IMG/VR virus record: IMGVR_UViG_3300028840_008157
Origin: a virus
Lineage: Duplodnaviria > Heunggongvirae > Uroviricota > Caudoviricetes
Direction: 5' to 3' (one strand)
Length of the DNA stretch: 64,000 nucleotides
The notes under the pieces were generated by a model that saw only the letters and a program-made list of their open reading frames with translations, did not search any database and was not told the origin of the DNA. How positions within the stretch are numbered: the first letter of the stretch is position 1; each line of letters begins with the position of its first letter. Of this stretch, positions 14,774-33,703 are shown piece by piece. Made by a program: the position numbers and the translations under genes.

Positions 14774-17700
14774 TCAGATGCTTATCTCCGAGACCCAAGT
14801 TTCGCTTCTCCACTTGATCGTCGTGCCAGCTTGGCCTTTAACAAGGATTTCCAGATCGTTGCCGTTGACGCCTATGGTTGCGTCCCACTGCGCCGACGAT
14901 TCCCTGGTCGTCGTCGTCTCGACCGGTCCTTGCAGGTCCGCGGCCGCCGCCTCTCGATAAGCCAACGCTCGCCTGACGTACCCGGCCCTGTTCGATCCAT
15001 CGTCTTGGATGGCGACTATGTGTGTTTCTACGAACACCGCAGTATTCGTGTCCATGGCGATGGTGTCGATTGTCGTATCCGTATTGTCCGTGGTCGTGAC
15101 GTAGGCGACTCGGAAGTTGGCCATCGGGCCGGTCCCGCTGAACCCTGACGACCCTGAGAATCCCGACGTACCGGAAAACGCGGACTTGCCTGAGAATCCC
15201 GACGTCCCGCTATGACCTGACGTCCCGGAGAACGCCGACGTCCCGCTATGGCCGGACGTTCCGGATATCCCCGATGCGCCGCTATGACTTGACGCGCCGC
15301 TATGGCCAGAGGTTCCGGAGAATCCAGATGTCCCGCTGTAGGCGGACGTTCCGGATGCACCTGACGTACCCGAGTAAGCGGATGCGCCTGACGTGCCCGA
15401 CGTCCCGCTATGGCCTGATGTCCCGCTGTATCCGGAAGGTCCCGAGGGCCCCGAATATCCCTTTCCGCTAAATCCGGAGGAACCACTATACCCGGAGGTT
15501 CCGCTGTACCCGGAAACCCCCGAGGGACCACTAGGACCGCTTGGCCCGGAATAACCCTCGCCGGAGAACCCGGAAGAACCTGAATAGCCCGACTGCCCTG
15601 ATGCGCCGGACAACGCGCTTGAACCGCTGGCCCCGGAGCTTCCGCTTGCCCCTGATGATCCGGAGTGTCCCGAATAACCCGAAGTTCCGGCCCCGCTATA
15701 CCCGGATGTCCCGGAATACGAGCTCGTTCCCGAATGTCCGGACTCGCCGGATGACCCGCTGGAGCCCGAGAAGCCCGGCTGTCCGGAGAAGGCCGACGTT
15801 CCAGACGTTCCGCTAGATCCGGAATTGCCGCTCGTGCCGCTGAATCCGCTTCCGCCACTGGTCCCGGAGAAGGCGCTTTGGCCCGAAGCTCCGGACGAGC
15901 CGCTGGTTCCTGATTGGCCACTGGTGGACGATGCACCGGAAACTCCGGAGAATCCAGACCGGCCAGATTGGCCGGAGAACGCAGAGGCTCCAGACTGGCC
16001 ACTGGTCCCCGACGTACCGACGAGGCCACTGAACCCGCTGGTCCCGCTGGTCCCGCTGGTCCCGGACAGGGCGGAAGTCCCTGACGAGCCACTCAGTCCG
16101 GAGAATCCGCTGGTTCCAGATGAGCCACTATCCCCGGACGTTCCGGAATGCCCCGATTGGCCGCTGAAAGCCGAGGTGCCGCTGTTGCCTCTCGCCCCGG
16201 AATAACCGCTGTCTCCTATCTCACCGGAGAATCCCGAGCGACCACTCGTTCCGGACGCCCCTGATACGCCGCTATGACCAGACGTGCCGGTCCCGGAGAA
16301 TCCGCTGCCCCCGGAGGTTCCACTGGTACCACTGGTACCAGTGGAACCCGAAGATCCGCTCTGGCCGCTTGTTCCGCTTTGCCCGGACCATGAACTGATC
16401 CCGGAAAAACCGCTGCCGCCGCTGCTACCACTACTTCCGGAGACGCCACTGACTCCGGAAGCCCCGCTGTCGCCTGGCGAACCGCTAAATCCGCTATCGC
16501 CGCTAGTACCGCTATGGCCAGATGAGCCACTGGAGCCACTGCTTCCACTGTATCCACTGGCCCCTGTCCCGCTGAAGCCTGATCGTCCGGACGAGCCGCT
16601 GTACGCCGATGATCCGGACGAACCGGATTGCCCGGAGAACGCGCTCGTCCCGCTCGCGCCTGAACGTCCGGATTCCCCGGATTCTCCTGGCGTCCCGCTG
16701 AAGCCGGAAGACCCGCTCGCGCCCGAACGTCCGGACGTTCCGCTGATTCCGCTGAAGGCACTCCTTCCCGAAGCCCCCGAAACACCAGAGAATCCACTGG
16801 ACCCTGAATGGGCGGAAGTCCCGGAAAGACCGCTGTTTCCGGACTGCCCGGATGTTCCGATTGACCCACTGAACCCGCTTCGTCCACTGGTACCGCTGGA
16901 ACCGCTGCTCCCCGAATGCCCGCTACTTCCGCTCGTCCCACTATGCCCGGACGCGCCGCTGGTTCCGCTCGATCCGACTTCGCCTGAGAAGCCCGAGGAA
17001 CCACTGCCTCCGGATGAGCCACTGGACCCCGACGTTCCGGTCCCGGAGAACCCACTGGAGCCCGAGGTACCGCTCGCGCCGGAATAACCTTGTTCGCCGC
17101 TCGTCCCGGACGCTCCGGATTGCCCTTGTTCTCCGCTGGTCCCGGAGAAACCGGACGAACCACTGGTACCGGAATAGGCGGACGCGCCCGAGATACCGCT
17201 CGTCCCGCTCTGGCCGCTTTGCCCGGTATCACCGCTGAATCCGCTAGACCCGCTAGACCCTGATTGGCCGCTTGATCCCGTCCCGCTAAAACCACTGGTT
17301 CCTGAAGCGCCGGACGTTCCGCTCGCGCCGCTTGCGCCGGACGTTCCGCTCGCGCCGCTTGCGCCGGACGTTCCGCTCGCGCCGCTCTGGCCGGACGGCG
17401 AACTATAACCCGACGCCCCGGAGAATGCGCTTTGGCCGCTGCTTCCTGATTGCCCGCTGGTCCCTGATTGGCCGCTATGAGCGGACGAACCGCTGAAACC
17501 GCTGGTCCCCGAACCGCCGCTCGTCCCGGAGCTACCGCTATGTCCGCTGCTCCCGGAGGAGCCGCTTCGCCCGGACGCTCCGGACTGTCCACTCAGGCCG
17601 CTTTCGCCAGGCGTTCCGGCTTGACCACTGTAACCGCTAACTCCTGAATGGGACGAGACGCCCGAGAACCCGCTGGTACCGGAGGCTCCCGACGTTCCGG

Positions 17701-20700
17701 ATACGCCGCTTGTTCCCGGGGTCCCGATCCCACTGAACCCTGATTGTCCCGAAACGCCGCTAGTCCCGGAGATACCGGAACGTCCGGACGTGCCGGAGAA
17801 AGCACTGAAACCGCTACTACCCGATGTCCCCGATGTTCCCGACGCGCCGCTCGAACCCGAGAACGACGACGACCCGGATATCCCGCTGAAGCCGCTGACG
17901 CCGGAAGCACCGCTCGCGCCGGATTGACCGGAATGCGCGGATGATCCGCTGTGCCCGCTCGAACCGCTTGAACCACTACTTCCGCTAGACCCGCTGCTCC
18001 CTGATTGTCCGCTGGATCCCGTTCCGCTGAAGCCACTGGTTCCTGATTTTCCGGACGTGCCTGAAAATCCCGACGCCCCGCTCTCTCCGCTGTTTCCGGA
18101 ATAACCGCTTTGACCGGACGGCGAACTATAACCCGACGTCCCGGAGAACGCGCTTTGGCCGCTGTGCCCGCTATGAGCGGATGACCCGCTAAAGCCGCTG
18201 CTTCCGGACGCGCCACTTGTCCCTGAGCTTCCACCATGACCTGACGTTCCGGAAACCCCAGACGAGCCGCTTGTCCCCGATGGGCCAGGTGACGCACTAA
18301 ATCCTGATGAGCCGCTCGTCCCGGACGCGCCGCTCGTCCCGGACGCGCCGCTGGTCCCGGATTCGCCGTTGCTTCCGGAAAGGCCGCTGAATCCGCTGAT
18401 ACCAGAAGAACCGCTGGTCCCGGAAGAACCGCTGGTCCCGGAAGAACCGCTGACACCGGACGTCCCAATCCCGCTAAATCCTGATTTCCCACTGCCTCCG
18501 GACGCGCCTGACGTACCGGACCATCCAGAGAAGGCGCTCGCTCCGGACTCGCCGCTCGTACCGGAATATCCGGACGCGCCCGACTCGCCCGACGCCCCGC
18601 TGAAGCCGCTCGTCCCCGATGTTCCGGAGATACCGCTAAGCCCACTTGTCCCCGAGTCCCCGATCCCGGAAAAACCGGAGGATCCGCTTGTCCCCGAAGA
18701 CCCGCTGACTCCTGAATGGCCGCTTTGTCCTGGATTGCCGCTAAATCCGGAAGATCCAGAATGTCCGGATGACCCGCTGGTCCCGGAATGGGCCGAGGTT
18801 CCGGAGTAGCCGCTGGACCCGCTGCTGCCGGATTGTCCGGAATCACCGATCGATCCGCTAAATCCGCTTTGCCCGGAAAGGCCTGAATGACCCGATGCTC
18901 CGCTGGCCCCTGAATAAGCACTGAAGCCCGAAGATCCGCTTGTTCCGGATGATCCGCTCGTTCCGCTTAGGCCAGGACTACCGCTTGATCCGGAATAGCC
19001 GGATGACCCGCTAAGGGCCGACGAACCGGAGAAACCGCTCGATCCTGAGAGGCCACTTTGGCCTGACGTTCCGCTCTCACCGGAATGACCGCTAAGGGCC
19101 GACGAACCGGAGAACCCGCTGCTTCCGGATGCCCCGCTTTGTCCGCTGGCCCCGCTCTCGCCGCTTGTTCCGACTTCCCCGGAGAAGCCCGAGGAACCAC
19201 TGCCTCCGGATGAGCCACTGGAACCTGATGTTCCAATCCCGGAAAATCCCGAGGAACCGCTGGTCCCACTTGAACCGCTGTCCCCTGAATGCCCGCTTGT
19301 CCCAGGGGAGCCTGAAATTCCAGAGAATCCGGATGAACCGGAAGACCCGCTGAACGCGCTCTGCCCGGAATGGCCACTCAGTCCGCTTTCGCCAATCGCG
19401 CCGCTTTGTCCGCTGGTACCCGAAGATCCGGAGTAAGACGAGATTCCGGAAAACCCGCTGCTTCCGGAATCTCCAGACGTTCCTGATGTTCCGCTCGTAC
19501 CTGACGTGCCGACCCCGCTGAAACCAGACTCTCCAGAAGTTCCAGACGACCCGCTATGTCCAGACGTTCCTGAGAAAGCGCTCGTCCCGCTCGCGCCGGA
19601 ATGACCGCTAATGGCCGATGAGCCCGAGAAACCGCTCGAACCAGATGTCCCGCTTGTCCCGCTGCTTCCGGATTGGGCGGAATGACCGGACGCGCCGCTG
19701 AATCCTGACGCGCCGCTCGTCCCGGACGAACCTGATGTCCCGGATATCCCGCTAAGTCCGCTTTCTCCCTCGATGCCCGACGTGCCGCTGAACGCGCTCG
19801 TCCCGCTCGTCCCGCTCGCTCCGGACGTTCCACTTGCCCCCGATGTTCCTGTTCCGGAAAATCCGCTTGTCCCTGAGGACCCGCTAAGGCCGCTCGTTCC
19901 GGAATGACCACTGTTCCCGGAATCTCCTGACCATGCACTTTCCCCGGAGAATCCTGACGTACCGGAAGAACCGGAGGCCCCGCTGAACGCGCTCGTCCCG
20001 CTGGTTCCGGATTGTCCGCTGGAAGATGTCCCACTGAAGCCTGAGTTTCCGCTGTGCCCGGACGTACCTGAATGCCCGCTCTGGCCGCTTGTCCCACTCA
20101 ATCCGCTTTCGCCAGCCGTTCCGCTTTGTCCGCTCGATCCAGATGCGCCGCTGCTTCCCGAGAATCCGCTCGCTCCGCTTTGACCGGAGAACCCCGAGCT
20201 TCCTGAGAATGCGCTTTGTCCGCTACTCCCGCTGGACCCGCTGACGCCCGAAGAACCGGATTGTCCGGACGCCGCGCTAAATCCGCTGGTTCCGGAATGA
20301 CCAGAAAAGGCGCTCGTTCCCGAGGATCCTGACGACCCCGACGCGCCAGATGAACCGCTGGCTCCCGAAATCCCTGGCGCTGCGCTGAATCCTGACGCGC
20401 CGCTCGTCCCGGACGCTCCGGATTGACCTTGTTCGCCGCTCGTCCCTGAGAAACCGGACGAACCACTGGTGCCGGAATAGGCGGACGAACCAGAATACCC
20501 TGAGGCTCCGCTATTTCCGGATTGGCCGCTTTGCCCAACATCGCCGCTAAAACCACTGGCCCCGGAATGACCGGATGTCCCACTACTTCCGGAAGATCCG
20601 CTCGTTCCCGAGTCGGCGCTAAATCCGGACGACCCACTCGCCCCGGAATGGCCTGACGTCCCGCTATCGCCGGACGTCCCGCTAGTCCCGGAAGAACCGC

Positions 20701-21607
20701 TTTGGCCGGACGACGCTGATGATCCGCTAAATCCTGAATATCCGCTGGTCCCGGAAGAGCCGGAATCCCCTTCCTGACCGGATGATCCACTCGTCCCGCT
20801 GAATCCCGATATGCCACTGGAACCGGATTGGCCACTTTGTCCGGATTGTCCGATCTCGCCTGATTGGCCGCTAAACCCTGAAGCGCCAGAAGTTCCACTA
20901 AACGCCGAAGCCCCGCTCGCGCCGGAAGAACCGCTGATGCCGGAATCGGCGCTAAACCCTGAAGAACCGCTTGCCCCGGATTGGCCCGAATATCCGCTCG
21001 CTCCCGACCATGCGCTGAAACCAGATGCTCCAGAGGTTCCGCTCTCGCCGGAATGACCGCTGAGGGCCGACGTCCCGGAAAAACCACTTGTTCCGGATGA
21101 CCCGCTTGTGCCGCTCGTACCTGAATGAGCTGAAGCCCCTGAAACGCCGCTGGTACCACTGACGCCGCTCTCGCCGCTTGTTCCGAATTCACCGGAGAAC
21201 CCTGACGACCCGCTGCTTCCGGAGGAACCGCTTTCGCCAGATGATCCGACTTGACCGGATGAACCGCTGAACCCGGAAACACCGCTTGAACCAGAATGAC
21301 CAGAGCTGCCACTATAAGACGACGTTCCGCTGGTTCCGGAATACCCGCTTGCGCCGGACGTTCCTGACGTCCCGCTGGTCCCCGACGTCCCGCTGAAACC
21401 GCTGATGCCGCTGACGCCCGTTATCCCGGAGAAACCGGTGAGCCACCCCGTCCCGCTGATGTGAACGATCTCTCCGGTAACGACGTCTACGCGTACCGGA
21501 CCAAGAGCCCACATGCCGGAGAATCCTTCCGGCCCCGAATAGCCGGAGTTTTCCTCGTATGGAACCCTGTGGACGTTATATCCAAGAGGGTTAGAAGGGG
21601 TTGCCAT
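14774..21607 (-). CDS. giant Gly-Xaa-Ser collagen-like repeat fibre protein A, 2277 aa
   Basis: About 55 aa N-terminal cap, ~2100 aa of (SGX)n, and a ~115 aa C-terminal globular domain (VTTTDNTDTTIDTIAM...VKGQAGTTIKWRSETWV). Confidence 0.9.
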   Translation of the reverse strand: MATPSNPLGYNVHRVPYEENSGYSGPEGFSGMWALGPVRVDVVTGEIVHISGTGWLTGFSGITGVSGISGFSGTSGTSGTSGTSGASGYSGTSGTSSYSGSSGHSGSSGVSGFSGSSGQVGSSGESGSSGSSGSSGFSGEFGTSGESGVSGTSGVSGASAHSGTSGTSGSSGTSGFSGTSALSGHSGESGTSGASGFSAWSGASGYSGQSGASGSSGFSADSGISGSSGASGASAFSGTSGASGFSGQSGEIGQSGQSGQSGSSGISGFSGTSGSSGQEGDSGSSGTSGYSGFSGSSASSGQSGSSGTSGTSGDSGTSGHSGASGSSGFSADSGTSGSSGSSGTSGHSGASGFSGDVGQSGQSGNSGASGYSGSSAYSGTSGSSGFSGTSGEQGQSGASGTSGASGFSAAPGISGASGSSGASGSSGSSGTSAFSGHSGTSGFSAASGQSGSSGVSGSSGSSGQSAFSGSSGFSGQSGASGFSGSSGASGSSGQSGTAGESGLSGTSGQSGHSGTSGHSGNSGFSGTSSSGQSGTSGTSAFSGASGSSGTSGFSGESAWSGDSGNSGHSGTSGLSGSSGTSGFSGTGTSGASGTSGASGTSGTSAFSGTSGIEGESGLSGISGTSGSSGTSGASGFSGASGHSAQSGSSGTSGTSGSSGFSGSSAISGHSGASGTSAFSGTSGHSGSSGTSGESGFSGVGTSGTSGTSGTSGDSGSSGFSGISSYSGSSGTSGQSGAIGESGLSGHSGQSAFSGSSGSSGFSGISGSPGTSGHSGDSGSSGTSGSSGFSGIGTSGSSGSSGGSGSSGFSGEVGTSGESGASGQSGASGSSGFSGSSALSGHSGESGTSGQSGLSGSSGFSGSSALSGSSGYSGSSGSPGLSGTSGSSGTSGSSGFSAYSGASGASGHSGLSGQSGFSGSIGDSGQSGSSGSSGYSGTSAHSGTSGSSGHSGSSGFSGNPGQSGHSGVSGSSGTSGSSGFSGIGDSGTSGLSGISGTSGTSGFSGASGESGASGYSGTSGESGASAFSGWSGTSGASGGSGKSGFSGIGTSGVSGSSGTSGSSGTSGSSGISGFSGLSGSNGESGTSGASGTSGASGTSGSSGFSASPGPSGTSGSSGVSGTSGHGGSSGTSGASGSSGFSGSSAHSGHSGQSAFSGTSGYSSPSGQSGYSGNSGESGASGFSGTSGKSGTSGFSGTGSSGQSGSSGSSGSSGSSGSSGHSGSSAHSGQSGASGASGVSGFSGISGSSSFSGSSGASGTSGTSGSSGFSAFSGTSGRSGISGTSGVSGQSGFSGIGTPGTSGVSGTSGASGTSGFSGVSSHSGVSGYSGQAGTPGESGLSGQSGASGRSGSSGSSGHSGSSGTSGGSGTSGFSGSSAHSGQSGTSGQSGSSGQSAFSGASGYSSPSGQSGASGTSGASGASGTSGASGASGTSGASGTSGFSGTGSSGQSGSSGSSGFSGDTGQSGQSGTSGISGASAYSGTSGSSGFSGTSGEQGQSGASGTSGEQGYSGASGTSGSSGFSGTGTSGSSGSSGGSGSSGFSGEVGSSGTSGASGHSGTSGSSGHSGSSGSSGTSGRSGFSGSIGTSGQSGNSGLSGTSAHSGSSGFSGVSGASGRSAFSGISGTSGRSGASGSSGFSGTPGESGESGRSGASGTSAFSGQSGSSGSSAYSGSSGRSGFSGTGASGYSGSSGSSGSSGHSGTSGDSGFSGSPGDSGASGVSGVSGSSGSSGGSGFSGISSWSGQSGTSGQSGSSGSTGTSGTSGTSGGSGFSGTGTSGHSGVSGASGTSGRSGFSGEIGDSGYSGARGNSGTSAFSGQSGHSGTSGDSGSSGTSGFSGLSGSSGTSALSGTSGTSGTSGFSGLVGTSGTSGQSGASAFSGQSGRSGFSGVSGASSTSGQSGTSGSSGASGQSAFSGTSGGSGFSGTSGNSGSSGTSGTSAFSGQPGFSGSSGSSGESGHSGTSSYSGTSGYSGAGTSGYSGHSGSSGASGSSGASGSSALSGASGQSGYSGSSGFSGEGYSGPSGPSGPSGVSGYSGTSGYSGSSGFSGKGYSGPSGPSGYSGTSGHSGTSGTSGASAYSGTSGASGTSAYSGTSGFSGTSGHSGASSHSGASGISGTSGHSGTSAFSGTSGHSGTSGFSGKSAFSGTSGFSGSSGFSGTGPMANFRVAYVTTTDNTDTTIDTIAMDTNTAVFVETHIVAIQDDGSNRAGYVRRALAYREAAAADLQGPVETTTTRESSAQWDATIGVNGNDLEILVKGQAGTTIKWRSETWVSEISI
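17307..17386. repeat. perfect 27-bp tandem repeat x3 (encodes SGASGTSGA), an in-frame expansion within fibre A
   Basis: Unit gcgccggacgttccgctcgcgccgctt at 17307, 17334 and 17361. Confidence 0.9.
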
Positions 21608-24600: not shown

Positions 24601-27600
24601 AAGCCGAAGTCCCGCTATGCCCAGACGTCCCGGATTCGCCTGACGTTCCGGATTCGCCACTGAATCCCGACGTTCCGGTCACTCCCGAGAAACCGCTTAT
24701 CCCCGACCACGCGCTCGTACCGCTTTGTCCAGAAAAACCGCTCGTTCCGCTGGAGCCGGATTCCCCACTGGTTCCGGACGATCCTGATGTTCCAGACCAT
24801 GCGCTAAATCCAGACGTCCCCGAAAAGCCACTCGTCCCCGAATGGGCTGACGTGCCTGAGGCTCCGCTCGTTCCGGACCACGCGCTGAAACCTGAAACTC
24901 CAGAGTACCCAGAAACTCCAGAGTACCCAGAAACGCCTGACGTCCCTGAATCGCCGCTCGTCCCTGACGTCCCCGAAAATCCGCTGGTCCCCGATTGGCC
25001 ACTGTAGGATGATTGCCCGGAGAAACCCGACACGCCGCTGAATGCGGAAGCCCCGCTGGTTCCAGATGCGCCAGATGCGCCCGAGGAACCAGAGTCACCA
25101 GGCGTTCCGGAGAATCCACTCGTCCCGGAGAACGCGCTTGTCCCCGATGTTCCGGAGGTACCGGAGTATCCAGACGTTCCGCTCGCGCCAGACCACGAAC
25201 TAAACCCAGAAACGCCGGAATGACCGGAGAACCCGCTGAACGCCGAAGTGCCGCTCGTTCCCGAGGCTCCCGAAGTTCCGCTGTAGGCTGATTCCCCAGA
25301 GAAGCCACTCGTCCCGGAATGCCCGCTCGTCCCGGATTGGCCGCTGTGAGCTGATGTTCCGCTGAATCCGGAGGTTCCTGACGTCCCGCTCGTTCCGGAC
25401 GCGCCACTTTCTCCGGAGTATGCCGAGAATCCGGAAACGCCGCTGTAACCGCTTTCCCCAGACGAGCCCGACGATCCGGAATAAGCACTGAACCCGGAGA
25501 TGCCGGAATGACCAGAGTAACCGCTGGTCCCGCTATGAGCGCTTTCCCCGGAGTAACCGGAAAATCCAGAGGTTCCACTCGCTCCCGAGGTTCCACTCGT
25601 CCCGGATTCTCCGCTGGCCCCAGATTCTCCGCCACTCCCCGAGAAGCCGCTCGTCCCGGAATGCGCAGAGGTTCCGCTGGTTCCGGAAGTCCCGGAAGTT
25701 CCCGATGTCCCTGAAAAACCACTTTCTCCGGACCACGCGCTGAACCCCGAGACGCCGCTGTAACCGCTGGTGCCGGACGCGCCGCTCGTGCCAGACGCGC
25801 CGGAAGTTCCAGGACCGCCAGCCTGCGCCGAGAATCCTGACAGGCCGCTGTATCCGGAGGTACCGGACGTTCCGGACGTTCCCGACGTGCCGGACGTGCC
25901 GCTTTCTCCGGAGTAGGCACTGAACCCGCTGACGCCGCTGAACGCGCTGAATCCGGATGTCCCGGAATGCCCGCTGGTCCCTGACGTCCCGCTGATACCG
26001 GACGCGCCACTTTCCCCGGAGTATGCGGAGAACCCGGAGACGCCGCTATAACCACTATGCCCCGATGAGCCGCTTGTACCAGACGATCCCGAGTAAGAAC
26101 TGAACCCTGAAACGCCCGAATCCCCGCTGAACCCGCTAGTTCCGGAATGCCCGCTCGCGCCGCTCGTACCCGAATGCCCGCTAGTTCCGCTATGAGCCGA
26201 CGTCCCGCTGAATCCGCTCGTTCCAGAGGTACCGGAGTATCCAGATGTTCCGCTCGCGCCAGACCACGAACTGAAACCCGAAACCCCGGAATGACCGGAG
26301 AACCCGCTGAACGCCGAAGTACCGCTCGTTCCCGAGGTCCCCGAAGTTCCACTGTAGGCTGATTCTCCGGAGAGTCCCGAGAAGCCACTCGTCCCGCTTG
26401 TCCCGGAGGCTCCGGAAGTCCCGGATGTTCCCGAAGCCCCACTGCTACCGCTGAAGCCGCTCGTGCCGGAATGCCCACTCGTTCCGGATTGACCGCTTTG
26501 GGCCGACGTCCCGCTGAATCCGGAGGTTCCTGACGTCCCGGAGTGGCCGCTGGTACCACTTTCCCCGGAGTACGCCGAGAAGCCCGAAACGCCGCTGTAA
26601 CCGCTTTCCCCAGACGAGCCCGACGAGCCGGAATAAGAACTGAACCCGGATACGCCGGAATGCCCGCTCGTTCCCGAATAACCACTGCTTCCGCTATGAG
26701 CGCTCGTCCCGGAAAATCCGGAAACGCCGCTCGTACCGCTCGTACCGGATTGTCCGGCTTCCCCGCTGAAACCGCTTTCACCGCTGACGCCGGATGTCCC
26801 ACTCGTCCCTGAATAGGCGCTAAACCCTGACGTTCCGGAGGTTCCTGAATGAGCTGACGTACCAGAAGTTCCGCTCGTCCCCGACCACGCGCTGAACCCA
26901 GAGATTCCAGAAACGCCGCTCGTCCCGGACGTACCACTTGTTCCGCTTTCTCCGGAGTACGCGCTGAATCCAGAGATACCGCTGAACGCGCTGGTACCGG
27001 ACGTTCCCGACGATCCGCTTTGACCCGAGTACGCGGAGAACCCGGAAACTCCACTGCCCCCGCTGGCTCCTGATGTACCCGAAATACCGCTGAAGCCGCT
27101 CGTTCCCGAGCTTCCGCTCGTTCCGCTGTAAGCTGATTCGCCAGAGGCTCCGGAAAAACCACTACTTCCTGACCATGCACTGAAGCCCGAGATTCCACTT
27201 TCACCGGACGTACCGGAGGTTCCGCTTTCTCCGGAGTATGCGGAGAATCCCGAAACGCCGCTATACCCGCTTTCCCCGGTCGTTCCCGAATAACCACTGC
27301 TTCCGCTCTGAGCGCTTGTCCCGGAGAATCCGCTCGTCCCGCTCGTTCCACTAGTACCTGATTGGCCAGCTTCCCCGCTAAAACCGCTCGTTCCAGAACT
27401 TCCGCTCGTTCCAGAACTTCCGCTAGTTCCACTGTAAGCCGATTCGCCAGAAGTTCCGGAAAAACCGCTCGTTCCAGACCACGCGCTGAAACCAGAAACG
27501 CCGCTTTCCCCGGACGTACCGGATGTTCCCGACGTTCCGCTTTCCCCTGAGTATGCGGAGAAACCGGAAACGCCGCTGTATCCACTTGTCCCGGATGATC

Positions 27601-29923
27601 CGGATGACCCGCTCGTCCCAGACGTCCCCGACCACGCGCTGAAACCAGAAACGCCGCTCGCCCCAGGAGTACCGCTTGTCCCTGAAGTCCCCGAAGTACC
27701 GGAGGTTCCGCTGGCAGCAGAGAACCCGGACGTTCCACTCAGCCCGGCTTCCCCGCTGAAGCCGCTTTCTCCGCTGACGCCCGAATACCCGGACGTTCCT
27801 GACGCTCCGCTATAGGCTGAAAATCCGCTGGCTCCAGACCACGCGCTGAATCCCGAAATTCCAGAAATGCCGGACGTACCGGATGTTCCCGAAGTGCCGC
27901 TTTCTCCGGAGTACGCGCTGAACCCGCTGACGCCGCTGAAACCGGATGCCCCGCTAGTCCCGCTTTCCCCGGAGGTTCCCGAGTCGCCGGACGATCCCGA
28001 TACTCCAGACCACGCGCTGAATCCAGATACGCCGGATGTACCGGACGTTCCCGAGGAGCCGGACGTTCCCGACGTGCCGCTTTCTCCAGAGTACGCGCTG
28101 AACCCGGATGTCCCGCTGTAGGCCGACGTACCGCTTTGCCCGGAATACGCGGAGAATCCGGAAACCCCAGATGTCCCGCTGCTCCCGCTACTTCCTGATG
28201 CGCCCGAAAATCCGGCTTCTCCGGAGAAGCCGCTCGTGCCTGACGTTCCCGACGTCCCAGACCACGCGCTGAAACCGCTGACGCCTGAATAACCTGACGT
28301 GCCGCTTGTTCCGCTTGTTCCGGACGTTCCTGAGTAGGCGCTGAATCCGGACGATCCCGATTCCCCGCTGGAGCCACTCTCGCCAGACTGACCACTCGTT
28401 CCTTCGACCCCGCTAAACCCGGACTGACCTGACCACGCAGAAAAACCTGACGTCCCACTGGTCCCCGAGTATCCGCTCGTCCCCGAGTGAGCCGACGCAC
28501 CGCTCGTGCCGGAAGAGCCGCTAACGCCAGCTTCTCCGCTGAAACCACTCGTGCCGGACCATGCGCTAAATCCTGACTGGCCCGAGTATGAACTCGTTCC
28601 GGAAAAACCGCTCGTTCCTGATTGTCCGCTGGTACCGGATGTTCCGCTCGTCCCGCTCGCCCCTGAATAAGCGGATTGTCCAGACGACCCGGAGGGTCCC
28701 GAGAATCCCGATTGGCCACTATGAGCGGAGAACCCGGAAGTTCCGCTATGGGCGGATGTACCAGACGACCCGCTGGCGCCGCTGTAGGCGGAGAAGCCGC
28801 TCGCCCCGGACCATGCGCTGAAGCCAGAAGCTCCCGATTGTCCGGACGTGCCGCTGGTTCCCGATTGCCCGCTGTACGCGGAGGTTCCGCTGAACCCGCT
28901 GGTCCCTGACGTCCCGCTCGTGCCGCTGGTACCAGAGAACGCCGACGCCCCGCTTTGACCGGAATGACCACTCTCCCCGGACCATGCGCTGAAACCGCTT
29001 ACGCCGGATTCACCGGACGTTCCCGACGTTCCGCTGGTACCGCTCGTCCCGGAATGGGCGCTGAACCCCGACGTACCGCTCTCGCCAGCCGTCCCGCTGG
29101 TCCCGGAGAAACCAGATTGCCCAGACCACGCGCTGAAGCCCGAGGTCCCGGACGTACCGGACGTACCGGACGTACCGGAATAACCCGACGTGCCCGACGT
29201 TCCGGACGCGCCCGACGTTCCGGACGCGCCCGACGTGCCCGAATGGGCGCTGAATCCAGAAAGCCCCGAATCGCCGGAATAACCACTCGTCCCGGATTGC
29301 CCGCTGTAAGCCGAAGCACCGCTGAACCCGGACGTCCCGCTTCCACCGGATGATCCGCTGCCACCGGAGAATCCCGAAACCCCGGAATGACCGGAACCGC
29401 CGGAGCTGCCGCTCAGTCCAGAACCGCCGGATGATCCGCTATAGGCGGAAAATCCCGACGTTCCGGAGAAGGCGCTGGCCCCGCTAGACCCGCTCCCGCC
29501 GCTGGTCCCGCTCGCCCCGCTGAAGCCGCTGGTCCCAGGGCCGCCCGCCTGGGCGGAGAACCCAGAGAGCCCGCTGTAACCAGATGTTCCCGAGGCTCCG
29601 CTCGGCCCGCTCGGCCCGCTCGGCCCGGATTCTCCCGCTTGTCCGCTCCAGCCGCTAGTCCCGGACTGCCCGGACGTTCCTGGTCCGCCAGCCTGCGCCG
29701 AGAAGCCGCTGATGCCGCTCCATCCGCTCTGTCCGCTATGTCCGGAGAATCCGCTCGTGCCGGAGTCGTAACCGACGAAGCCGCTGATGATGCCGCTTCC
29801 GCCGATGTTGATGATGTCGCCGGTGGTAAGGTCGATGCGCGTGTCGCCGAGGACGAGCCAGCCGGAGAAGCCGGAACTGTAGTCCACCGGCATCTTCTGG
29901 CGTATGTATTGGTTGCATCCCAT
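21620..29923 (-). CDS. giant Gly-Xaa-Ser collagen-like repeat fibre protein B, ~2767 aa
   Basis: The listed start at 30007 overlaps the upstream gene, so ATG 29923 (or 29893) is more likely. N-terminal cap is homologous to that of fibre A, followed by ~2550 aa of (SGX)n and a ~160 aa C-terminal beta-sandwich domain. Confidence 0.9.
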   Translation of the reverse strand: MGCNQYIRQKMPVDYSSGFSGWLVLGDTRIDLTTGDIINIGGSGIISGFVGYDSGTSGFSGHSGQSGWSGISGFSAQAGGPGTSGQSGTSGWSGQAGESGPSGPSGPSGASGTSGYSGLSGFSAQAGGPGTSGFSGASGTSGGSGSSGASAFSGTSGFSAYSGSSGGSGLSGSSGGSGHSGVSGFSGGSGSSGGSGTSGFSGASAYSGQSGTSGYSGDSGLSGFSAHSGTSGASGTSGASGTSGTSGYSGTSGTSGTSGTSGFSAWSGQSGFSGTSGTAGESGTSGFSAHSGTSGTSGTSGTSGESGVSGFSAWSGESGHSGQSGASAFSGTSGTSGTSGTSGFSGTSAYSGQSGTSGTSGQSGASGFSAWSGASGFSAYSGASGSSGTSAHSGTSGFSAHSGQSGFSGPSGSSGQSAYSGASGTSGTSGTSGQSGTSGFSGTSSYSGQSGFSAWSGTSGFSGEAGVSGSSGTSGASAHSGTSGYSGTSGTSGFSAWSGQSGFSGVEGTSGQSGESGSSGESGSSGFSAYSGTSGTSGTSGTSGYSGVSGFSAWSGTSGTSGTSGFSGEAGFSGASGSSGSSGTSGVSGFSAYSGQSGTSAYSGTSGFSAYSGESGTSGTSGSSGTSGTSGVSGFSAWSGVSGSSGDSGTSGESGTSGASGFSGVSGFSAYSGESGTSGTSGTSGISGISGFSAWSGASGFSAYSGASGTSGYSGVSGESGFSGEAGLSGTSGFSAASGTSGTSGTSGTSGTPGASGVSGFSAWSGTSGTSGSSGSSGTSGYSGVSGFSAYSGESGTSGTSGTSGESGVSGFSAWSGTSGFSGTSGESAYSGTSGSSGTSGSSGTSGFSGEAGQSGTSGTSGTSGFSGTSAQSGSSGYSGTTGESGYSGVSGFSAYSGESGTSGTSGESGISGFSAWSGSSGFSGASGESAYSGTSGSSGTSGFSGISGTSGASGGSGVSGFSAYSGQSGSSGTSGTSAFSGISGFSAYSGESGTSGTSGTSGVSGISGFSAWSGTSGTSGTSAHSGTSGTSGFSAYSGTSGTSGVSGESGFSGEAGQSGTSGTSGVSGFSGTSAHSGSSGYSGTSGHSGVSGFSSYSGSSGSSGESGYSGVSGFSAYSGESGTSGHSGTSGTSGFSGTSAQSGQSGTSGHSGTSGFSGSSGASGTSGTSGASGTSGTSGFSGLSGESAYSGTSGTSGTSGTSAFSGFSGHSGVSGFSSWSGASGTSGYSGTSGTSGFSGTSAHSGTSGHSGTSGASGHSGTSGFSGDSGVSGFSSYSGSSGTSGSSGHSGYSGVSGFSAYSGESGASGISGTSGTSGHSGTSGFSAFSGVSGFSAYSGESGTSGTSGTSGTSGTSGYSGLSGFSAQAGGPGTSGASGTSGASGTSGYSGVSGFSAWSGESGFSGTSGTSGTSGTSGTSAHSGTSGFSGSGGESGASGESGTSGTSGASGTSGFSGYSGESAHSGTSGYSGHSGISGFSAYSGSSGSSGESGYSGVSGFSAYSGESGASGTSGTSGTSGFSGTSAHSGQSGTSGHSGTSGFSGESAYSGTSGASGTSGTSAFSGFSGHSGVSGFSSWSGASGTSGYSGTSGTSGTSAFSGTSGFSGTPGDSGSSGASGASGTSGASAFSGVSGFSGQSSYSGQSGTSGFSGTSGTSGDSGTSGVSGYSGVSGYSGVSGFSAWSGTSGASGTSAHSGTSGFSGTSGFSAWSGTSGSSGTSGESGSSGTSGFSGQSGTSAWSGISGFSGVTGTSGFSGESGTSGESGTSGHSGTSAYSGASGHSGTSAFSGTSGVSGFSAYSGSSGISGTSGHSGASGVSGFSAHSGESGASGISGTSGTSGHSGTSGFSAFSGVSGFSAYSGESGTSGTSGASGTSGTSGYSGLSGFSAQAGGPGTSGQSGASGASGTSGASGFSGTSGQSGTSGFSGVGTSGTSGTSGTSGTSGYSGVSGFSGTSGTSGTSGFSGASAYSGQSGTSGTSGQSGTSGFSAWSGTSGFSGPSGTSGTSGTSGYSGTSGFSGVGASGASGTSGSSGTSGFSGTSGYSGTGESGTSGYSGQSGASAFSGVSGFSAFSGTSGTSAFSGQSGASGTSGTSGFSGVGTSGASGTSGTSGESGYSGSSGFSGVSGYSGIGESGTSGYSGQSGTSAYSGVSGFSGASGTSGASAFSGQSGFSGISGASGTSGTSGTSGESGTSGFSGHSGVGTSGYSGQSGTSAFSGVSGFSGASGSSGTSGQSGHSGVSGYSGIGESGTSGYSGVSGYSGVGESGASGTSGASGTSGFSGHSGIGESGYSGQSGTSAFSGTSGFSGSSGSSGTSAFSGQSGTSGASGFSGYSGTSGTSGQSGSSGTSGFSGHSGVGESGYSGSSGTSGYSGASGTSGFSAYSGVSGYSGTGTSGTSGTSGASGASAFSGQSGFSGTSGTSGESGTSGFSGVGASGDSGISGTSGTSGFSGVSGYSGTGESGTSGHSGQSGTSAYSGQSGFSGSSGTSGPSGVSGHSGTSGFSGLSGHSGVSGASAHSGTSGFSAYSGSSGTSGTSGASGESGTSGFSAWSGSSGHSGASGFSSPSGTSGYSGVSGYSGSSGMSGFSGTSGFSGDSGFSGPAASSTSGYKYLFLDVGAGFGNASLGSTANNLLYLDYIKNVDRLEGWAITVPSDWISGTTIYVNAFWSPDANGAGNVRWVLYANARAIGEDVTAGTWTDVYLQASPGVADQLTETGQNLEITGASMAAGDMLQMTLERTGSNVADTLNTSARVHVVRVEYMALKLV
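24241..26115. repeat. diverged segmental duplication within fibre B (~310 bp: 24241-24555 vs 25808-26115)
   Basis: Both copies begin ccaggaccgccagcctgcgccgagaatcctgacag and stay colinear, mostly with third-position differences. A second pair lies at ~25150-25300 vs ~26225-26375. Confidence 0.8.
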
Positions 29924-29933
29924 CGGCGATCGC

Positions 29934-30677
29934 CTAGCTGCTGAAGGTCCTGCCCGTGTAGTTGAGCTTGACCAGGTGGATGTAGACCGGGGCGTCCAAC
30001 GTGTCATCCGCGTGCAACGCCGTTCTCCTGACGGAGATCATGAGTAGCTTGTTGGCCGCCAAGTCGGCCGGCGGGATGACCAGGTTGCTACCAGTCGTGT
30101 AGAGCTTGTCGGAGGCCAAGGCTTGCTGAATGTAGGACACGCTCCCGGCCGGATCGGTCATGTCCTCCCCGGGAAGAACCGCCTTGTGCTCCATGAACCA
30201 CCTGACCTGCGCGGGCTCGCCATTCGGGAAGGTCCAGTACGCCTGCACGTATATCGGAGTCCCCGCGACATAGTCCTTCGGGACGACCAACGTCCACTTG
30301 CTGCGGTGGTTGCATCCCTCCTCGAACACGAGGCTCGGGACGTCGTTGATGTCCTGGATGATCGCGGTGTCCTCGCCGCCATGGATGTCGACAGCGAGGT
30401 ACTTGGTTCCGGGGATGCCCGCGCCTGGCAGCTCGGCGTGAATGACGATCTGTTCCGGCCTCGCGTCGTAGGCGATGATCTCCAGGTACCCGATGTCGAC
30501 CGCGTTCTTGATGTTCGGGAATCGGTAGTACTCGTCCGGGATGATGAGGCAATCGCCGGCCTTTACGGATCTCCTGAACTGGCCCGCGGCCGCGAGCCAC
30601 TCGTATTCCGTGGAGCCGAGCACCTCGTTGGCGCTGACGTCCAGCCACCCCTCGAAGTTCTTTGCCAGGAGGATCAT
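29934..30677 (-). CDS. 247-aa protein whose C-terminal domain is paralogous to the C-terminal domain of fibre B
   Basis: Shared pattern W...VP.D...GT.IYV.A.W......VRW......GED.T......Q......L..TG.NL.I......A...L.....RT.....DTL......H.V...Y. Confidence 0.85.
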   Translation of the reverse strand: MILLAKNFEGWLDVSANEVLGSTEYEWLAAAGQFRRSVKAGDCLIIPDEYYRFPNIKNAVDIGYLEIIAYDARPEQIVIHAELPGAGIPGTKYLAVDIHGGEDTAIIQDINDVPSLVFEEGCNHRSKWTLVVPKDYVAGTPIYVQAYWTFPNGEPAQVRWFMEHKAVLPGEDMTDPAGSVSYIQQALASDKLYTTGSNLVIPPADLAANKLLMISVRRTALHADDTLDAPVYIHLVKLNYTGRTFSS

Positions 30678-30678
30678 G

Positions 30679-31419: not shown

Positions 31420-31445
31420 TCGGGAGCCTCCGACTCTCTGGTTGT

Positions 31446-31471: not shown

Positions 31472-31477
31472 TGTTTC

Positions 31478-33703
31478 TCAGCCGCCCATCAACATGAGCC
31501 CCCATTGGCGGATCGCCGTCGTGGAAGCACCTCCGTCCCCTCCGGTCCCGGAGAAACCGGAGAAACCCGACACCTGAAGTCCGGAGAACCCGGATACCCC
31601 GGAATAACCAGAATAAGTCCCGGAGAAGCCGCTGGTTCCGCTGGTCCCTGACGTGCCGCTGAGGCCGGAGGTACCTGAGTAGGCGCTTGTTCCGCTGAAC
31701 CCTGACGTACCGCTGGTCCCTGACGTACCGCTGGTACCGGACGTACCGCTGGTACCGGACGTACCGCTTTCTCCGGTCCCGCTGAAGCCGGAAGTTCCCG
31801 ACGCCCCGGAGTATCCAGAATATGTTCCGGAGAAACCGCTGCTCCCGCTTAATCCGGAGAATCCTGACGTCCCCGAATATCCGCTCGTTCCCGACGTGCC
31901 GCTCGTCCCTGACGTGCCGGACATTCCGCTCGTCCCGCTCGTCCCGCTCGGCCCCGAGAAGCCGGACGTCCCGGACGTCCCGGACGTCCCGCTGTAGGCG
32001 GATGTCCCGCTGTAGCCGGACGTCCCGGATTGACCACTCGTACCGCTCGGTCCCGAGAAGCCGGACGTCGCGGAGGTTCCGCTGACGCCGCTGAGACCGC
32101 TGTAACCACTCTCCCCGCTATGGCCGCTGAATCCGCTCGTCCCGACTCCGCTATAGCCGCTCGTTCCCGACGTGCCGCTAAGGCTACTGAAGCCGCTCGT
32201 CCCAGACGTGCCCGATGATCCGCTATATCCAGACTGGCCGCTATCGCCTGTCCCTGAAAATCCGGAAACGCCGGAGAACGCGGACGTGCCACTCGTTCCG
32301 GAAAGGCTGCTGAACCCACTGACGCCGGAGTAAGCGCTGAAACCGCTGACGCCGGAATAGGCGCTGGTCCCGCTGGTCCCGCTGGTCCCGCTGTCGCCGG
32401 TTCCGCTAAACCCGGACGTTCCGCTATAAGCCGAGAACCCGCTCGTCCCGGAATGGCCTGACGCTCCGCTGGTCCCTGAGGTTCCGCTGTTCCCGGGCGT
32501 CCCGCTGGCCCCGCTATAGGCGGAAAATCCCGACGTACCGCTCGTTCCGGGTTCGCCTTCCAGTCCGCTAAAGCCACTGAACCCGCTAACGCCGGAATAT
32601 CCGCTCGTACCCGAGGTTCCGGATTGCCCCGAATAAGTCCCGCTGAAGCCGCTGAATCCGCTGGCTCCGGAATGACCGCTCGTCCCGGAGGTTCCTGCGT
32701 CGCCGCTAGATCCCGATGTCCCGCTGTACGCGCTGAACCCGCTGACGCCGGATTGGCCGCTCGTTCCAGACGTCCCCGACGCACCGGCCCCGCTCGTTCC
32801 GGAGTACGCGGAGAAGCCCGAAACGCCGCTATAGCCGCTCTCCCCGATCGAACCAGGAGTACCGCTATACGCGCTGAACCCGCTGGCTCCGGAATGACCA
32901 CTCGTCCCGGATTCCCCGATTCCACTGTGGCCGCTCGTTCCGGAGTACGCGGAGAAGCCCGAAACGCCGCTATAACCGGAAAAACCGCTAACGCCGCTCG
33001 GACCGCTCGGACCGCTCGGACCTGAAATCCCAATCTCGCCAGAAAAACCGCTCGTCCCGGACGCGCCGCTGAAGCCGCTGATGCCGCTGAGACCGGATTG
33101 TCCCGAGAAGGTCCCGCTGAAACCGCTGACGCCCGAAAAACCGGAAATGCCGCTATGGCCGCTCGTGCCGGAGTACGCGCTCGTTCCTGAATACGCGCTC
33201 GTCCCGGAGAAGCCCGACGTTCCCGAAATGCCGGAATAGGCGCTCGTCCCGGACATGCCTGACGCGCCTGACGTGCCGGAGAAGCCGCTCGTCCCCGACA
33301 TACCCGATAGCGACGAGAAACCGCTTACGCCGGAATACGCCGAGGTCCCGCTATAGCCGCTCTCGCCGGAAGTACCGCTCGCCCCGCTGACGCCGGAGGT
33401 CCCGCTGGTCCCGACACCGCTCGACCCAGAGAAGCCACTCTCGCCGGAATGGGCGCTCGTCCCGGACGCCCCTGAAAAACCAGAAAACCCACTCGCCCCG
33501 GAGAGTCCCGAGATTCCAGAATAAGTCCCGCTGAAGCCGCTAACGCCGGACCATCCGCTCGTCCCGGACGTCCCGCTGGTTCCGGAGTACGCGCTGGTCC
33601 CGGAATAACCGGACGTTCCGGACGTGCCGGACGTCCCCGAGAACCCACTGGTCCCGGAGAAACCGGACTTCCCAGATGCGCCTACTGGATATGCACTGCC
33701 CAT
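31478..33703 (-). CDS. Gly-Xaa-Ser repeat protein C, 741 aa, almost entirely repeat, with very short termini
   Basis: Sequence is MGSAYPVG-(SGX)n-GDGGASTTAIRQWGLMLMGG; GAGG RBS upstream. Confidence 0.85.
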   Translation of the reverse strand: MGSAYPVGASGKSGFSGTSGFSGTSGTSGTSGYSGTSAYSGTSGTSGTSGWSGVSGFSGTYSGISGLSGASGFSGFSGASGTSAHSGESGFSGSSGVGTSGTSGVSGASGTSGESGYSGTSAYSGVSGFSSLSGMSGTSGFSGTSGASGMSGTSAYSGISGTSGFSGTSAYSGTSAYSGTSGHSGISGFSGVSGFSGTFSGQSGLSGISGFSGASGTSGFSGEIGISGPSGPSGPSGVSGFSGYSGVSGFSAYSGTSGHSGIGESGTSGHSGASGFSAYSGTPGSIGESGYSGVSGFSAYSGTSGAGASGTSGTSGQSGVSGFSAYSGTSGSSGDAGTSGTSGHSGASGFSGFSGTYSGQSGTSGTSGYSGVSGFSGFSGLEGEPGTSGTSGFSAYSGASGTPGNSGTSGTSGASGHSGTSGFSAYSGTSGFSGTGDSGTSGTSGTSAYSGVSGFSAYSGVSGFSSLSGTSGTSAFSGVSGFSGTGDSGQSGYSGSSGTSGTSGFSSLSGTSGTSGYSGVGTSGFSGHSGESGYSGLSGVSGTSATSGFSGPSGTSGQSGTSGYSGTSAYSGTSGTSGTSGFSGPSGTSGTSGMSGTSGTSGTSGTSGYSGTSGFSGLSGSSGFSGTYSGYSGASGTSGFSGTGESGTSGTSGTSGTSGTSGTSGTSGFSGTSAYSGTSGLSGTSGTSGTSGFSGTYSGYSGVSGFSGLQVSGFSGFSGTGGDGGASTTAIRQWGLMLMGG

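What the first reader, a model, noticed from the sequence alone, without database searches (positions are those of the whole stretch)
14774..33703. Gly-Xaa-Ser giants follow a strict sequence grammar and could be sub-micron fibres
Seen: Gly every third residue with Ser, not Pro or Hyp, fixed before it. Gly-to-Ala or Gly-to-Ser substitutions mostly precede an aromatic or His residue (SAW, SAY, SAF, SAH, SSY). Register breaks are stereotyped (F/Y-SG-[TIVE]-G-x-SG in A, B and D; SGT-Y/F-SG in C). The first ~1,900 aa of B are essentially unbroken in register, and breaks cluster in its C-terminal third. Each protein has its own dialect: A is Ser-rich with Arg; B is Thr/Trp-rich; C has Met and SSL; D has Glu/Pro and AQAGGPG. 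Known: collagen rise is about 0.29 nm per residue, so ~2,550 aa would span about 0.7 micrometres if extended; polyglycine-II bundles are an alternative fold. Inference: a fibrous material whose triplet X position encodes structure or glycosylation sites.
Basis: partly seen in the sequence, partly recalled or inferred. Interest (0 to 1): 0.75.

Follow-up and report, generated by a model that had tools for sequence, protein, structure and literature searches.

The report
Giant serine-collagen phage fibre genes
Four neighbouring genes of an uncultivated, probably huge phage encode collagen-register proteins of up to 854 Gly-X-Ser triplets. They contain almost no proline or charged residues and carry a regular pattern of alanine/aromatic marks. 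They most likely form very long, probably sugar-coated virion fibres, but no structure has been shown.

Summary
A (14774-21607), B (21620-30007) and C (31478-33703) are 705, 854 and 233 triplets of Gly-X-Ser. D (36528-41465) lies outside the stated span. In A-C, Ser fills 95-98% of the position before Gly, and Pro is about 1%.

Ala or Ser replaces Gly in 7-11% of triplets and is then followed by F/Y/W/H (71-92% against 19-29%; p 4e-6 to 3e-38). Register breaks are almost all one-residue deletions after an aromatic triplet. B runs 621 triplets without a break. Spacing of the marks is far from random. Where breaks appear in B, Ala marks halve, so their total stays at 11-15 per 100 triplets.

All six Ser codons are used and DNA copies are only 60-70% alike, so selection acts on the protein.

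Gly-X-Ser collagen-like proteins are common in metagenomes (180 of those fetched). This scan's earlier notes report them in at least 49 other genomes. The longest other arrays I saw had about 245 triplets. Glycosyltransferase genes lie beside the fibres here and in 4 of 5 relatives examined.

Best reading: homotrimeric, glycosylated collagen-type fibres (0.5).

The parts
14774..21607 (-). Fibre A, 2277 aa. N-terminal module is about aa 1-60 (21428-21607). The Gly-X-Ser shaft is aa 61-2130 (15218-21427): 705 triplets, 15 breaks, Ser-rich X positions, 10 Arg. The tip of about 147 aa (14774-15217) has no detectable relatives.
   Evidence: Pfam Collagen 733 bits; tip has no relatives
21620..30007 (-). 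Fibre B, 2795 aa as listed. The ATG at 30007 overlaps the upstream gene by 74 nt, so the true start is probably 29923 or 29893. 854 triplets.
   Evidence: Pfam Collagen 785 bits
24155..29743 (-). B shaft, aa 89-1951: 621 triplets in one register. The Gly position holds 541 G, 74 A and 6 S. A quasi-repeat of about 8 triplets is built on G[VI]S-GFS-A[YW]S-G[ET]S.
22148..24154 (-). B shaft, aa 1952-2620: all 13 one-residue-deletion breaks lie between aa 1957 and 2488. Ala marks halve here, so total mark density is unchanged.
21620..22144 (-). B tip domain, aa 2622-2795. It belongs to a widespread, uncharacterised module that nearly always sits at the C-terminus.
   Evidence: 445 representative proteins at E<=1e-3; alignments; no PDB or Pfam match
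29934..30677 (-). Stand-alone 247-aa protein carrying a copy of the B-type tip domain.
   Evidence: 30% identity to the B tip
31478..33703 (-). Fibre C, 741 aa: 233 triplets with no globular end domain. It has 13 breaks, including five SGT-[Y/F]-SG insertions.
   Evidence: Pfam Collagen 245 bits
36528..41465 (-). Fibre D, 1645 aa: several looser Gly-X-Ser segments (Ser 77%) interrupted by globular parts. Residues about 1299-1393 match PHROG tail-fibre families independently of the repeat.
33752..36528 (-). Three tandem Gly_rich_2 paralogs (PF21722; phrog_863 'tail fiber assembly') between C and D.
9755..11275 (-). GT4-type glycosyltransferase, 506 aa. Candidate fibre-modifying enzyme.
2878..8382 (-). 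1834-aa multi-module glycosyltransferase (GT4 and GT2 modules). Candidate fibre-modifying enzyme.

Best explanation
A, B and C (and the collagen segments of D) are shafts of virion fibres of a very large tailed phage.

Inferred structure: each shaft is a homotrimer. The chains are held in polyproline-II conformation by Gly at every third residue and wind into a collagen-type triple helix.
- The N-terminal module shared by A and B would dock the fibre on the particle.
- The differing C-terminal tips would bind different receptors.

The helix lacks proline and salt bridges. The near-invariant Ser before each Gly occupies the position held by hydroxyproline in animal collagen and by glycosylated Thr in BclA and vent-worm collagen. 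I infer that Ser supplies stability through O-linked sugars added by the neighbouring GT4/GT2 enzymes, through bound water, or both.

About every 8 triplets the helix is punctuated. The mark is either Ala-for-Gly flanked by aromatics (GFS-A[Y/W]S) or a one-residue deletion after an aromatic triplet. In a homotrimer these marks coincide in all three chains. They would form rings of aromatic side chains around a locally loosened core, acting as hinges, register-setting points or contact sites.

Shown here: the sequence pattern, its statistics, selection at protein level, and glycosyltransferase genes next to the fibres.

Inferred only: trimer, helix, glycosylation, length, and location on the virion.
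For: Collagen register:
- Pfam PF01391 scores 733, 785 and 245 bits.
- Segments of B and C align to collagen chains in PDB, B with E 5e-107.

Selection on register and on Ser:
- 621 triplets run without an indel.
- Ser is encoded by all six codons (about 40% AGY).
- DNA copies are mostly 60-70% identical and tandem DNA repeats are few.

Ordered grammar:
- The Ala-aromatic rule holds at p 4e-15, 3e-38 and 4e-6.
- Spacing variance of the marks is 11.4 against 49.8 expected.
- Mark density stays at 11-15 per 100 triplets, with breaks replacing Ala marks.
- Mark spacing varies from 3 to 16 triplets. That suits a linear helix better than a folded-back bundle.

Class level:
- 180 fetched proteins are of Gly-X-Ser type, and 366 of their 425 breaks are the same one-residue deletion, mostly after Y/F.
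- About 40 listed relatives carry Peptidase_S74. Others carry BclA_C or Mtd_N. From established knowledge of these families, all three are trimeric modules.

Fibre context:
- A and B share an N-terminal module (E 3e-8).
- The B tip lies at the C-terminus in nearly all of the listed relatives, out of 445 representative proteins matched.
- D matches tail-fibre PHROGs outside its repeats, and Gly_rich_2 genes are adjacent.

Glycosylation:
- GT genes lie downstream on the same strand here.
- They also lie within 5 kb in L001, L003, L004 and L005. L004 is syntenic with the window.
- Literature: a phage collagen-like protein forms a trimeric triple helix (PMC3368898). Glycosylated Thr at this position stabilises collagen (cited in PMC11923368).
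Against: No structural evidence exists.

Known collagen stabilisers are absent:
- Pro is 0.5-1.1%.
- Charged residues are 1.8-2.8%.
- There are no KGE or KGD motifs. PMC11923368 presents these as the common folding clamp.
- B's shaft has no Lys or Arg.

Ala/Ser at the Gly position in 13% of B's triplets means no perfect run exceeds 16 triplets. From own knowledge, Gly-to-Ala strongly destabilises model triple helices. Aromatic residues, at 25-30% of X positions, are also poor helix formers.

The tips of A and B match no Pfam family or solved protein by sequence, so their oligomeric state is unknown. C has no end domain to nucleate a trimer.

The window's glycosyltransferases are generic GT4/GT2, and nothing links them to protein substrates. 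One relative (L002) has no glycosyltransferase nearby.

No capsid, portal or tail-tube gene lies in the window. Phage identity rests on gene layout, PHROG matches and earlier notes that I could not check.
Confidence: 0.5

Rival explanations
1. The chains adopt polyproline-II conformation but do not form a collagen triple helix. They pack as polyglycine-II-like bundles or sheets, as in snow-flea antifreeze protein or the gp38 adhesin of T-even phages. The Ala/aromatic and G-x-G marks would be turns or bundle edges, giving a much shorter and thicker object.
For: - Marks recur about every 8 triplets and no perfect Gly run exceeds 16 triplets. Frequent non-Gly residues are hard to reconcile with a canonical triple helix.
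- The two kinds of mark differ by one residue yet are interchangeable, as turn variants could be.
- Three Gly_rich_2 genes, a family thought to use such packing, lie beside the fibres.
Against: - Unit lengths range from 3 to 35 triplets. Antiparallel strands of such unequal length would not pack.
- Bulky F/Y/W fill 25-30% of X positions, whereas known polyglycine-II bundles need small residues on packed faces (own knowledge).
- Marks keep the three-residue register exactly, which turns do not require.
- Relatives carry trimeric end domains.
Confidence: 0.15
2. The shafts are largely disordered, densely O-glycosylated Ser-Gly polymers forming a mucin- or proteoglycan-like brush on the particle. 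The triplet period reflects the spacing that the modifying enzymes need, not a fold.
For: - Ser+Thr is about 45% and Gly about 30%, with very low charge and Pro.
- Multi-module glycosyltransferases are adjacent here and in relatives.
- None of the known collagen stabilisers is present.
Against: - A disordered brush should tolerate indels of any length. Yet 621 triplets stay in register while DNA copies have diverged to 60-70% identity.
- The breaks that do occur are of one stereotyped kind, across 180 proteins from many sources.
- Gly itself is conserved at 89-92% and is replaced only by Ala or Ser.
- Marks are evenly spaced.
Confidence: 0.2
3. The proteins are not virion parts. They are released or displayed in the infected cell, for example as a matrix or decoy material.
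For: No capsid or tail hallmark gene lies in the window. The neighbours are giant Kelch/FN3/VWA adhesin-like proteins of unknown location.
Against: - No signal peptide is obvious at the N-termini of A-D (by eye).
- The layout of a shared N-terminal module with swappable C-terminal tips is that of phage fibres.
- There are PHROG tail-fibre matches outside the repeats.
Confidence: 0.05

Closest known systems
Prophage collagen-like side tail fibre proteins of E. coli O157:H7 (EPclA-D; PMC3368898)
   Same: Phage fibre proteins with a Gly-X-Y domain between globular end modules. They were shown experimentally to be trimeric, with a collagen CD signal and a 42 C melting point.
   Different: EPclA's stability is attributed to abundant Pro at X and about 22% charged residues (PMC11923368), and Ser does not dominate its Y position. 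Here Pro is about 1%, charge 2-3%, Ser 95-98% at Y, and the arrays reach 854 triplets with 7-11% Ala/Ser for Gly.
BclA of the Bacillus exosporium, and glycosylated-Thr collagens (vent-worm cuticle collagen; galactosylated (Gly-Pro-Thr)10 peptide, as cited in PMC11923368)
   Same: A hydroxy amino acid at the Y position of a collagen-like repeat. In those cases it carries O-linked sugar that stabilises the helix. The protein forms surface filaments with a C-terminal globular domain.
   Different: Those use Thr with Pro at X; here Ser is used with no Pro. BclA has tens of triplets. No BclA_C domain is present in A-D; the only hit is a weak sub-threshold one in the neighbouring ORF 11288-13198. 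Glycosylation is not shown here.
Bacterial collagen-like proteins in general (Scl1/Scl2 and others; PMC8968730, PMC11923368)
   Same: Pfam PF01391 register, absence of hydroxyproline, and very long arrays. Up to about 2000 triplets are reported for prokaryotes.
   Different: Published compositions give Pro 19-31% at X and Thr 32-48% at Y, with charged pairs as clamps. None of these applies here.
Interrupted defence collagens (mannose-binding lectin G-Q-G break; C1q Ala-for-Gly and insertion). Own knowledge.
   Same: Single one-residue-deletion breaks or Ala substitutions tolerated inside a functional triple helix, where they act as hinges.
   Different: Those have one such site per chain. Here there is one every 7-8 triplets, with a fixed aromatic context.
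Polyglycine-II bundle proteins (snow-flea antifreeze protein; T-even phage gp38 adhesin). Own knowledge; PMC12892980 for gp38.
   Same: Three-residue Gly periodicity and polyproline-II geometry in a phage receptor-binding setting.
   Different: Those have short strands of about 10 residues joined by turns, with small side chains. Here runs are hundreds of triplets long and rich in aromatics.
Proline-free Gly-Ser/Thr-Ser phage fibres beside TibC-like glycosyltransferases, noted earlier in this scan
   Same: Same class: phage, no Pro, Ser before Gly, glycosyltransferase next door.
   Different: - Those notes describe mostly Ser/Thr at X and a TibC/Aah-type enzyme.
- Here X carries 25-30% aromatics arranged in the Ala/aromatic pattern.
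- The arrays here are about three times longer than any I retrieved.
- The enzymes here are GT4/GT2; no TIGR04414 match appeared among those listed.

Membership tests
Collagen triple helix repeat proteins (Pfam PF01391) | Gly at every third residue over long runs; score above Pfam's cut-off | tested here: met
   733, 785 and 245 bits against a cut-off of 27.2. Gly is 89-92% at its position, and the remainder is Ala or Ser only.
Collagen triple helix repeat proteins (Pfam PF01391) | Sequence stabilisers of the helix: imino acids at X/Y or charged pairs (KGE/KGD) | tested here: not met
   Pro 0.5-1.1%, charged residues 1.8-2.8%, KGE/KGD count zero.
Collagen triple helix repeat proteins (Pfam PF01391) | Three chains wound into a triple helix | not testable with these tools
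Collagen triple helix repeat proteins (Pfam PF01391) | Adjacent trimerisation domain | tested here: inconclusive
   The tips of A and B match no Pfam family or solved protein by sequence. C has none. Class relatives carry Peptidase_S74, BclA_C or Mtd_N.
Phage tail or side fibre proteins | Conserved N-terminal attachment module shared by paralogs, with swappable C-terminal tips | tested here: met
   A and B N-termini align (36% identity, E 3e-8). The B tip is C-terminal in nearly all listed relatives (445 representative proteins matched), and a stand-alone copy lies next door.
Phage tail or side fibre proteins | Homology to known fibre proteins outside low-complexity repeats, and a virion-gene neighbourhood | tested here: inconclusive
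   D residues about 1299-1393 match phrog_972, phrog_4302 and phrog_9648 (E 3e-7 to 1e-13). Three phrog_863 genes are adjacent. No tail tube, baseplate or capsid gene is in the window, and no whole genome is held.
BclA-type glycosylated collagen-like filaments | Hydroxy amino acid at Y and glycosyltransferase genes alongside | tested here: met
   Ser 95-98% at Y. GT4 and a GT4/GT2 multi-module gene lie downstream. Glycosyltransferase genes lie within 5 kb in 4 of 5 relatives.
BclA-type glycosylated collagen-like filaments | BclA_C (C1q-like) C-terminal domain; O-glycan demonstrated | tested here: not met
   No BclA_C in A-D. The glycan itself cannot be tested with these tools.
TibC/Aah-type protein O-heptosyltransferase partners (TIGR04414), as in the scan's earlier notes | A TIGR04414-class enzyme next to the fibre | tested here: not met
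   No TIGR04414 match among the listed hits for either window glycosyltransferase, and no Glyco_transf_9 by Pfam. The GT9 in L004 scores 19.7 bits against a cut-off of 200. The rest of the genome could not be searched.
Polyglycine-II bundle proteins | Short polyproline-II strands of similar length joined by turns, with small residues on packed faces | tested here: not met
   Units between marks range from 3 to 35 triplets. F/Y/W fill 25-30% of X positions.

The most novel reading that the evidence does not exclude
These are true triple helices of a kind not yet described. They would be collagen without proline, hydroxyproline or salt bridges, held together by dense O-glycosylation of the Ser before each Gly. 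Evenly spaced aromatic/Ala collars would punctuate them. The resulting phage fibres would be 0.6-0.7 micrometres long, far longer than known phage fibres. The pattern would constitute a second, independent 'folding code' for collagen.
Probability: 0.3. Interest if true: 0.8.

Novelty: new variant of a known kind. Interest (0 to 1): 0.6.

Why it matters
Collagen biophysics explains helix stability by imino acids, hydroxyproline, charged pairs or glycosylated threonine. These proteins keep the collagen register under clear selection for thousands of residues while lacking the first three. They also tolerate Ala at the Gly position about every eighth triplet.

If they fold as triple helices, they define a new stabilising principle and a simple, repetitive, recombinantly accessible design for long protein rods. 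If they do not, they define a new polyproline-II-based material.

For phage biology, fibres several hundred nanometres long with sugar coats would change ideas about how huge phages find hosts. The class is common in metagenomes, yet it is absent from the two reviews and the primary paper on microbial collagens that I read.

Tried and rejected
- **Trimer prediction.** Three copies of B's last 266 residues were submitted with alignment A1. 
- **Fold of A's tip.** The single-sequence fold was useless (pLDDT 38). No relatives could be found to build an alignment (the hits cover only the collagen remnant).
- **Close relatives of both tips.** None in IMG/VR. tblastn of B's tip and of C against 50,697 phage records found nothing. 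For C this is probably because of the low-complexity filter.
- **The window's own contig.** Not found in viral or metagenome collections, nor by exact protein look-up. No whole genome is held. The records behind L001-L005 are not searchable. Genome size, capsid genes and any TibC-type enzyme elsewhere therefore could not be checked.
- **Literature.** A search for 'Gly-X-Ser' returned only lipase motifs. PDB entry 8zxl, named 'spindlefibril/axialfibril', is cited by a collagen-assembly paper, and I did not pursue it as a phage fibre.
- **Recent DNA slippage or mis-assembly.** Rejected as the source of the repeats. There are few tandem DNA arrays, copies are mostly 60-70% identical, and only a few 110-185-nt pairs reach 80-92%.
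- **Strict helical super-period.** None found. Phe spacing peaks at 8 triplets but is broad. Y/W alternation is weak (p 0.03).

Full report
**What is there.** The window is a single minus-strand run of very large genes with tiny gaps. Four of them are collagen-register proteins:
- A: 14774-21607, 2277 aa.
- B: 21620-30007, 2795 aa as listed.
- C: 31478-33703, 741 aa.
- D: 36528-41465, 1645 aa. It lies outside the finding's span.

A register parse gives 705, 854, 233 and about 316 triplets. In A-C the Gly position is 89-92% Gly, with Ala 6.5-10.6% and Ser about 1%. The position before Gly is Ser in 95.0-97.5% of triplets, and Pro is about 1%. D is looser (Ser 77%). Pfam's Collagen model scores 733, 785 and 245 bits for A, B and C.

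**The grammar is real.**
- Ala or Ser at the Gly position is followed by F/Y/W/H in 71% (A), 92% (B) and 81% (C) of cases, against 19-29% after Gly. Fisher p is 4e-15, 3e-38 and 4e-6. The effect is not significant in D.
- In B the preceding triplet is usually G-F-S. The extended consensus is G[V/I]S-GFS-A[Y/W]S-G[E/T]S.
- Breaks are nearly all one-residue deletions of the form [F/Y/H]-S-G-x-G-x-S-G. C adds five SGT-[Y/F]-SG insertions.
- B's first break is at residue 1957. Before it, 621 triplets keep one register.
- Order along the chain is far from random. Phe-Phe spacing of 7-9 triplets makes up 45% against 14% expected. Non-Gly marks are never closer than three triplets (0% against 24% expected). 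Spacing variance is 11.4 against 49.8. None of 2000 shuffles reached these values.
- A new point: marks of either kind number 11-15 per 100 triplets in every 300-residue bin of B. Where breaks appear, Ala marks halve (15 to 7 and 6). The two marks are therefore interchangeable. No perfect Gly run in B exceeds 16 triplets.
- X composition differs among the four proteins (chi-square 243, p 3e-31).

**Selection acts on the protein, not on a DNA repeat.**
- Ser before Gly uses all six codons, about 40% AGY.
- In B the two codon families alternate more than chance (446 runs against 389 +/- 14).
- Tandem DNA arrays are few and short.
- Dispersed copies are mostly 60-70% identical, with a few 110-185-nt pairs at 80-92%.
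- Recent slippage or mis-assembly is therefore unlikely. Keeping 621 triplets in register implies constraint on a structure.

**How common it is.**
- A search with C found 1585 proteins, almost all with Pfam Collagen. Of the proteins fetched, 180 have at least 60 triplets with Ser at 60% or more of the Y position and virtually no Pro.
- Of their 425 breaks, 366 are the same one-residue deletion, mostly after Y or F. The C-type insertion also recurs.
- The Ala-aromatic rule holds only in the aromatic-bearing subset. Ser/Thr-only members have Ala marks without aromatics.
- Among hits of 1252 aa or more, the longest Gly-X-Ser arrays had 246 and 240 triplets, and the longest unbroken run was 118. 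That search scored only the 8000 best candidates.
- Published work states that prokaryotic collagen-like chains can reach about 2000 triplets (PMC11923368). The size is therefore exceptional for this class and for phages, not for biology as a whole.
- This scan's own notes report the proline-free Gly-Ser/Thr-Ser phage-fibre class in at least 49 other genomes.

**Context.**
- A and B share an N-terminal module of about 50 residues (E 3e-8).
- B's 174-residue tip belongs to a family of 445 representative proteins. In nearly all listed members it is C-terminal. It matches nothing in Pfam or PDB.
- A stand-alone gene (29934-30677) carries the same tip.
- A's tip has no detectable relatives.
- C has no globular end.
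- D matches tail-fibre PHROGs outside its repeats, and three Gly_rich_2/phrog_863 genes lie between C and D.
- Downstream on the same strand lie a GT4 gene and an 1834-aa GT4/GT2 multi-module gene. Neither is TibC-like.
- In five contigs carrying relatives, four have glycosyltransferase genes within 5 kb on the same strand (L001, L003, L004, L005). L002, which looks like a cyanophage contig, has none.
- L004 is syntenic with the window: its Kelch giant is 43% identical and the preceding giant 38% identical, each over nearly its full length. Its fibre has only 711 aa, so the giant size here is a lineage-specific expansion.
- Earlier notes call the genome a roughly 547-kb phage. I could not verify this, because neither the genome nor the contig is held.

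**Interpretation.** The best reading is homotrimeric collagen-type fibres, probably glycosylated on the Ser before Gly (confidence 0.5).

For it:
- The collagen register is under selection.
- Trimeric end domains (Peptidase_S74, BclA_C, Mtd_N) are fused to class relatives.
- A phage collagen-like protein has been shown to be a trimeric triple helix (PMC3368898).
- Glycosylated Thr at the same position is known to stabilise collagen (as cited in PMC11923368).
- Mark spacing is variable, which suits a linear helix.

Against it:
- Every known stabiliser is missing. Pro is 0.5-1.1%, charged residues 1.8-2.8%, and there are no KGE/KGD motifs.
- Ala sits at the Gly position about every eighth triplet.
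- Aromatic residues are abundant at X.
- The tips' oligomeric state is unknown.

Rivals are a polyglycine-II-like folded bundle (0.15), a disordered glycosylated brush (0.2) and a non-virion product (0.05).

At 0.286 nm per residue the shafts would span about 590 nm (A), 725 nm (B) and 200 nm (C). This is arithmetic, not evidence.

**Limits.** All structural statements are therefore inference.

Noticed in passing
window 22148-29743 (B shaft): AGY and TCN serine codons alternate more often than chance at the Ser-before-Gly position (446 runs against 389 +/- 14). It looks as if codon choice is scrambled to keep the DNA non-repetitive.
   Followed up: partly
window 29934-30677 and 31478-33703: A 247-aa stand-alone protein carries B's tip domain, and similar proteins of about 250 aa exist elsewhere (P0251-P0253). 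Fibre C just upstream has no end domain. The two might form a two-part fibre.
   Followed up: partly
L004:1-22136 (NCBI GCA_034680565.1, JAXOUH010042469.1): A 160-kb contig syntenic with window 41852-50273 (43% and 38% identity over two giant proteins). There a 711-aa Gly-X-Ser fibre is followed 16 bp later by a GT9 gene, then a 2156-aa RCC1-repeat protein and a GT8+GT9 gene.
   Followed up: partly
window 11288-13198: The C-terminal 127 residues of this 636-aa protein give a weak, sub-threshold BclA_C (C1q-like) match (E 0.0016, 18.7 bits against a cut-off of 38).
   Followed up: no
window 21620-30007 (B), residues 85-2620: The shaft has no Lys and no Arg but 59 acidic residues. A trimer would carry roughly -177 charge spread evenly along its length.
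   Followed up: no
A residues about 2018-2060, D about 218-260, B about 130-145, C about 225: The few prolines cluster in G-P-S-G-P-S-G-P-S runs, often after the motif SGFSGEGYSG. These are possible helix nucleation sites.
   Followed up: no
window 29893-30007: B's listed ATG overlaps the upstream gene by 74 nt. ATGs at 29923 and 29893 lie after that gene's stop and are more likely starts. No clear ribosome-binding site was seen.
   Followed up: partly
window 33752-36528: Three tandem Gly_rich_2 (PF21722) paralogs that also match phrog_863 'tail fiber assembly'. The first listed ORF overlaps the second by about 100 nt, so its start is probably further in.
   Followed up: no
L003:16524-21644 and L005:13502-19642: Relatives' fibres are followed by single polypeptides of 1706 and 2046 aa that string together several GT2, GT17 and methyltransferase modules. 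This resembles the window's 1834-aa multi-module enzyme.
   Followed up: no
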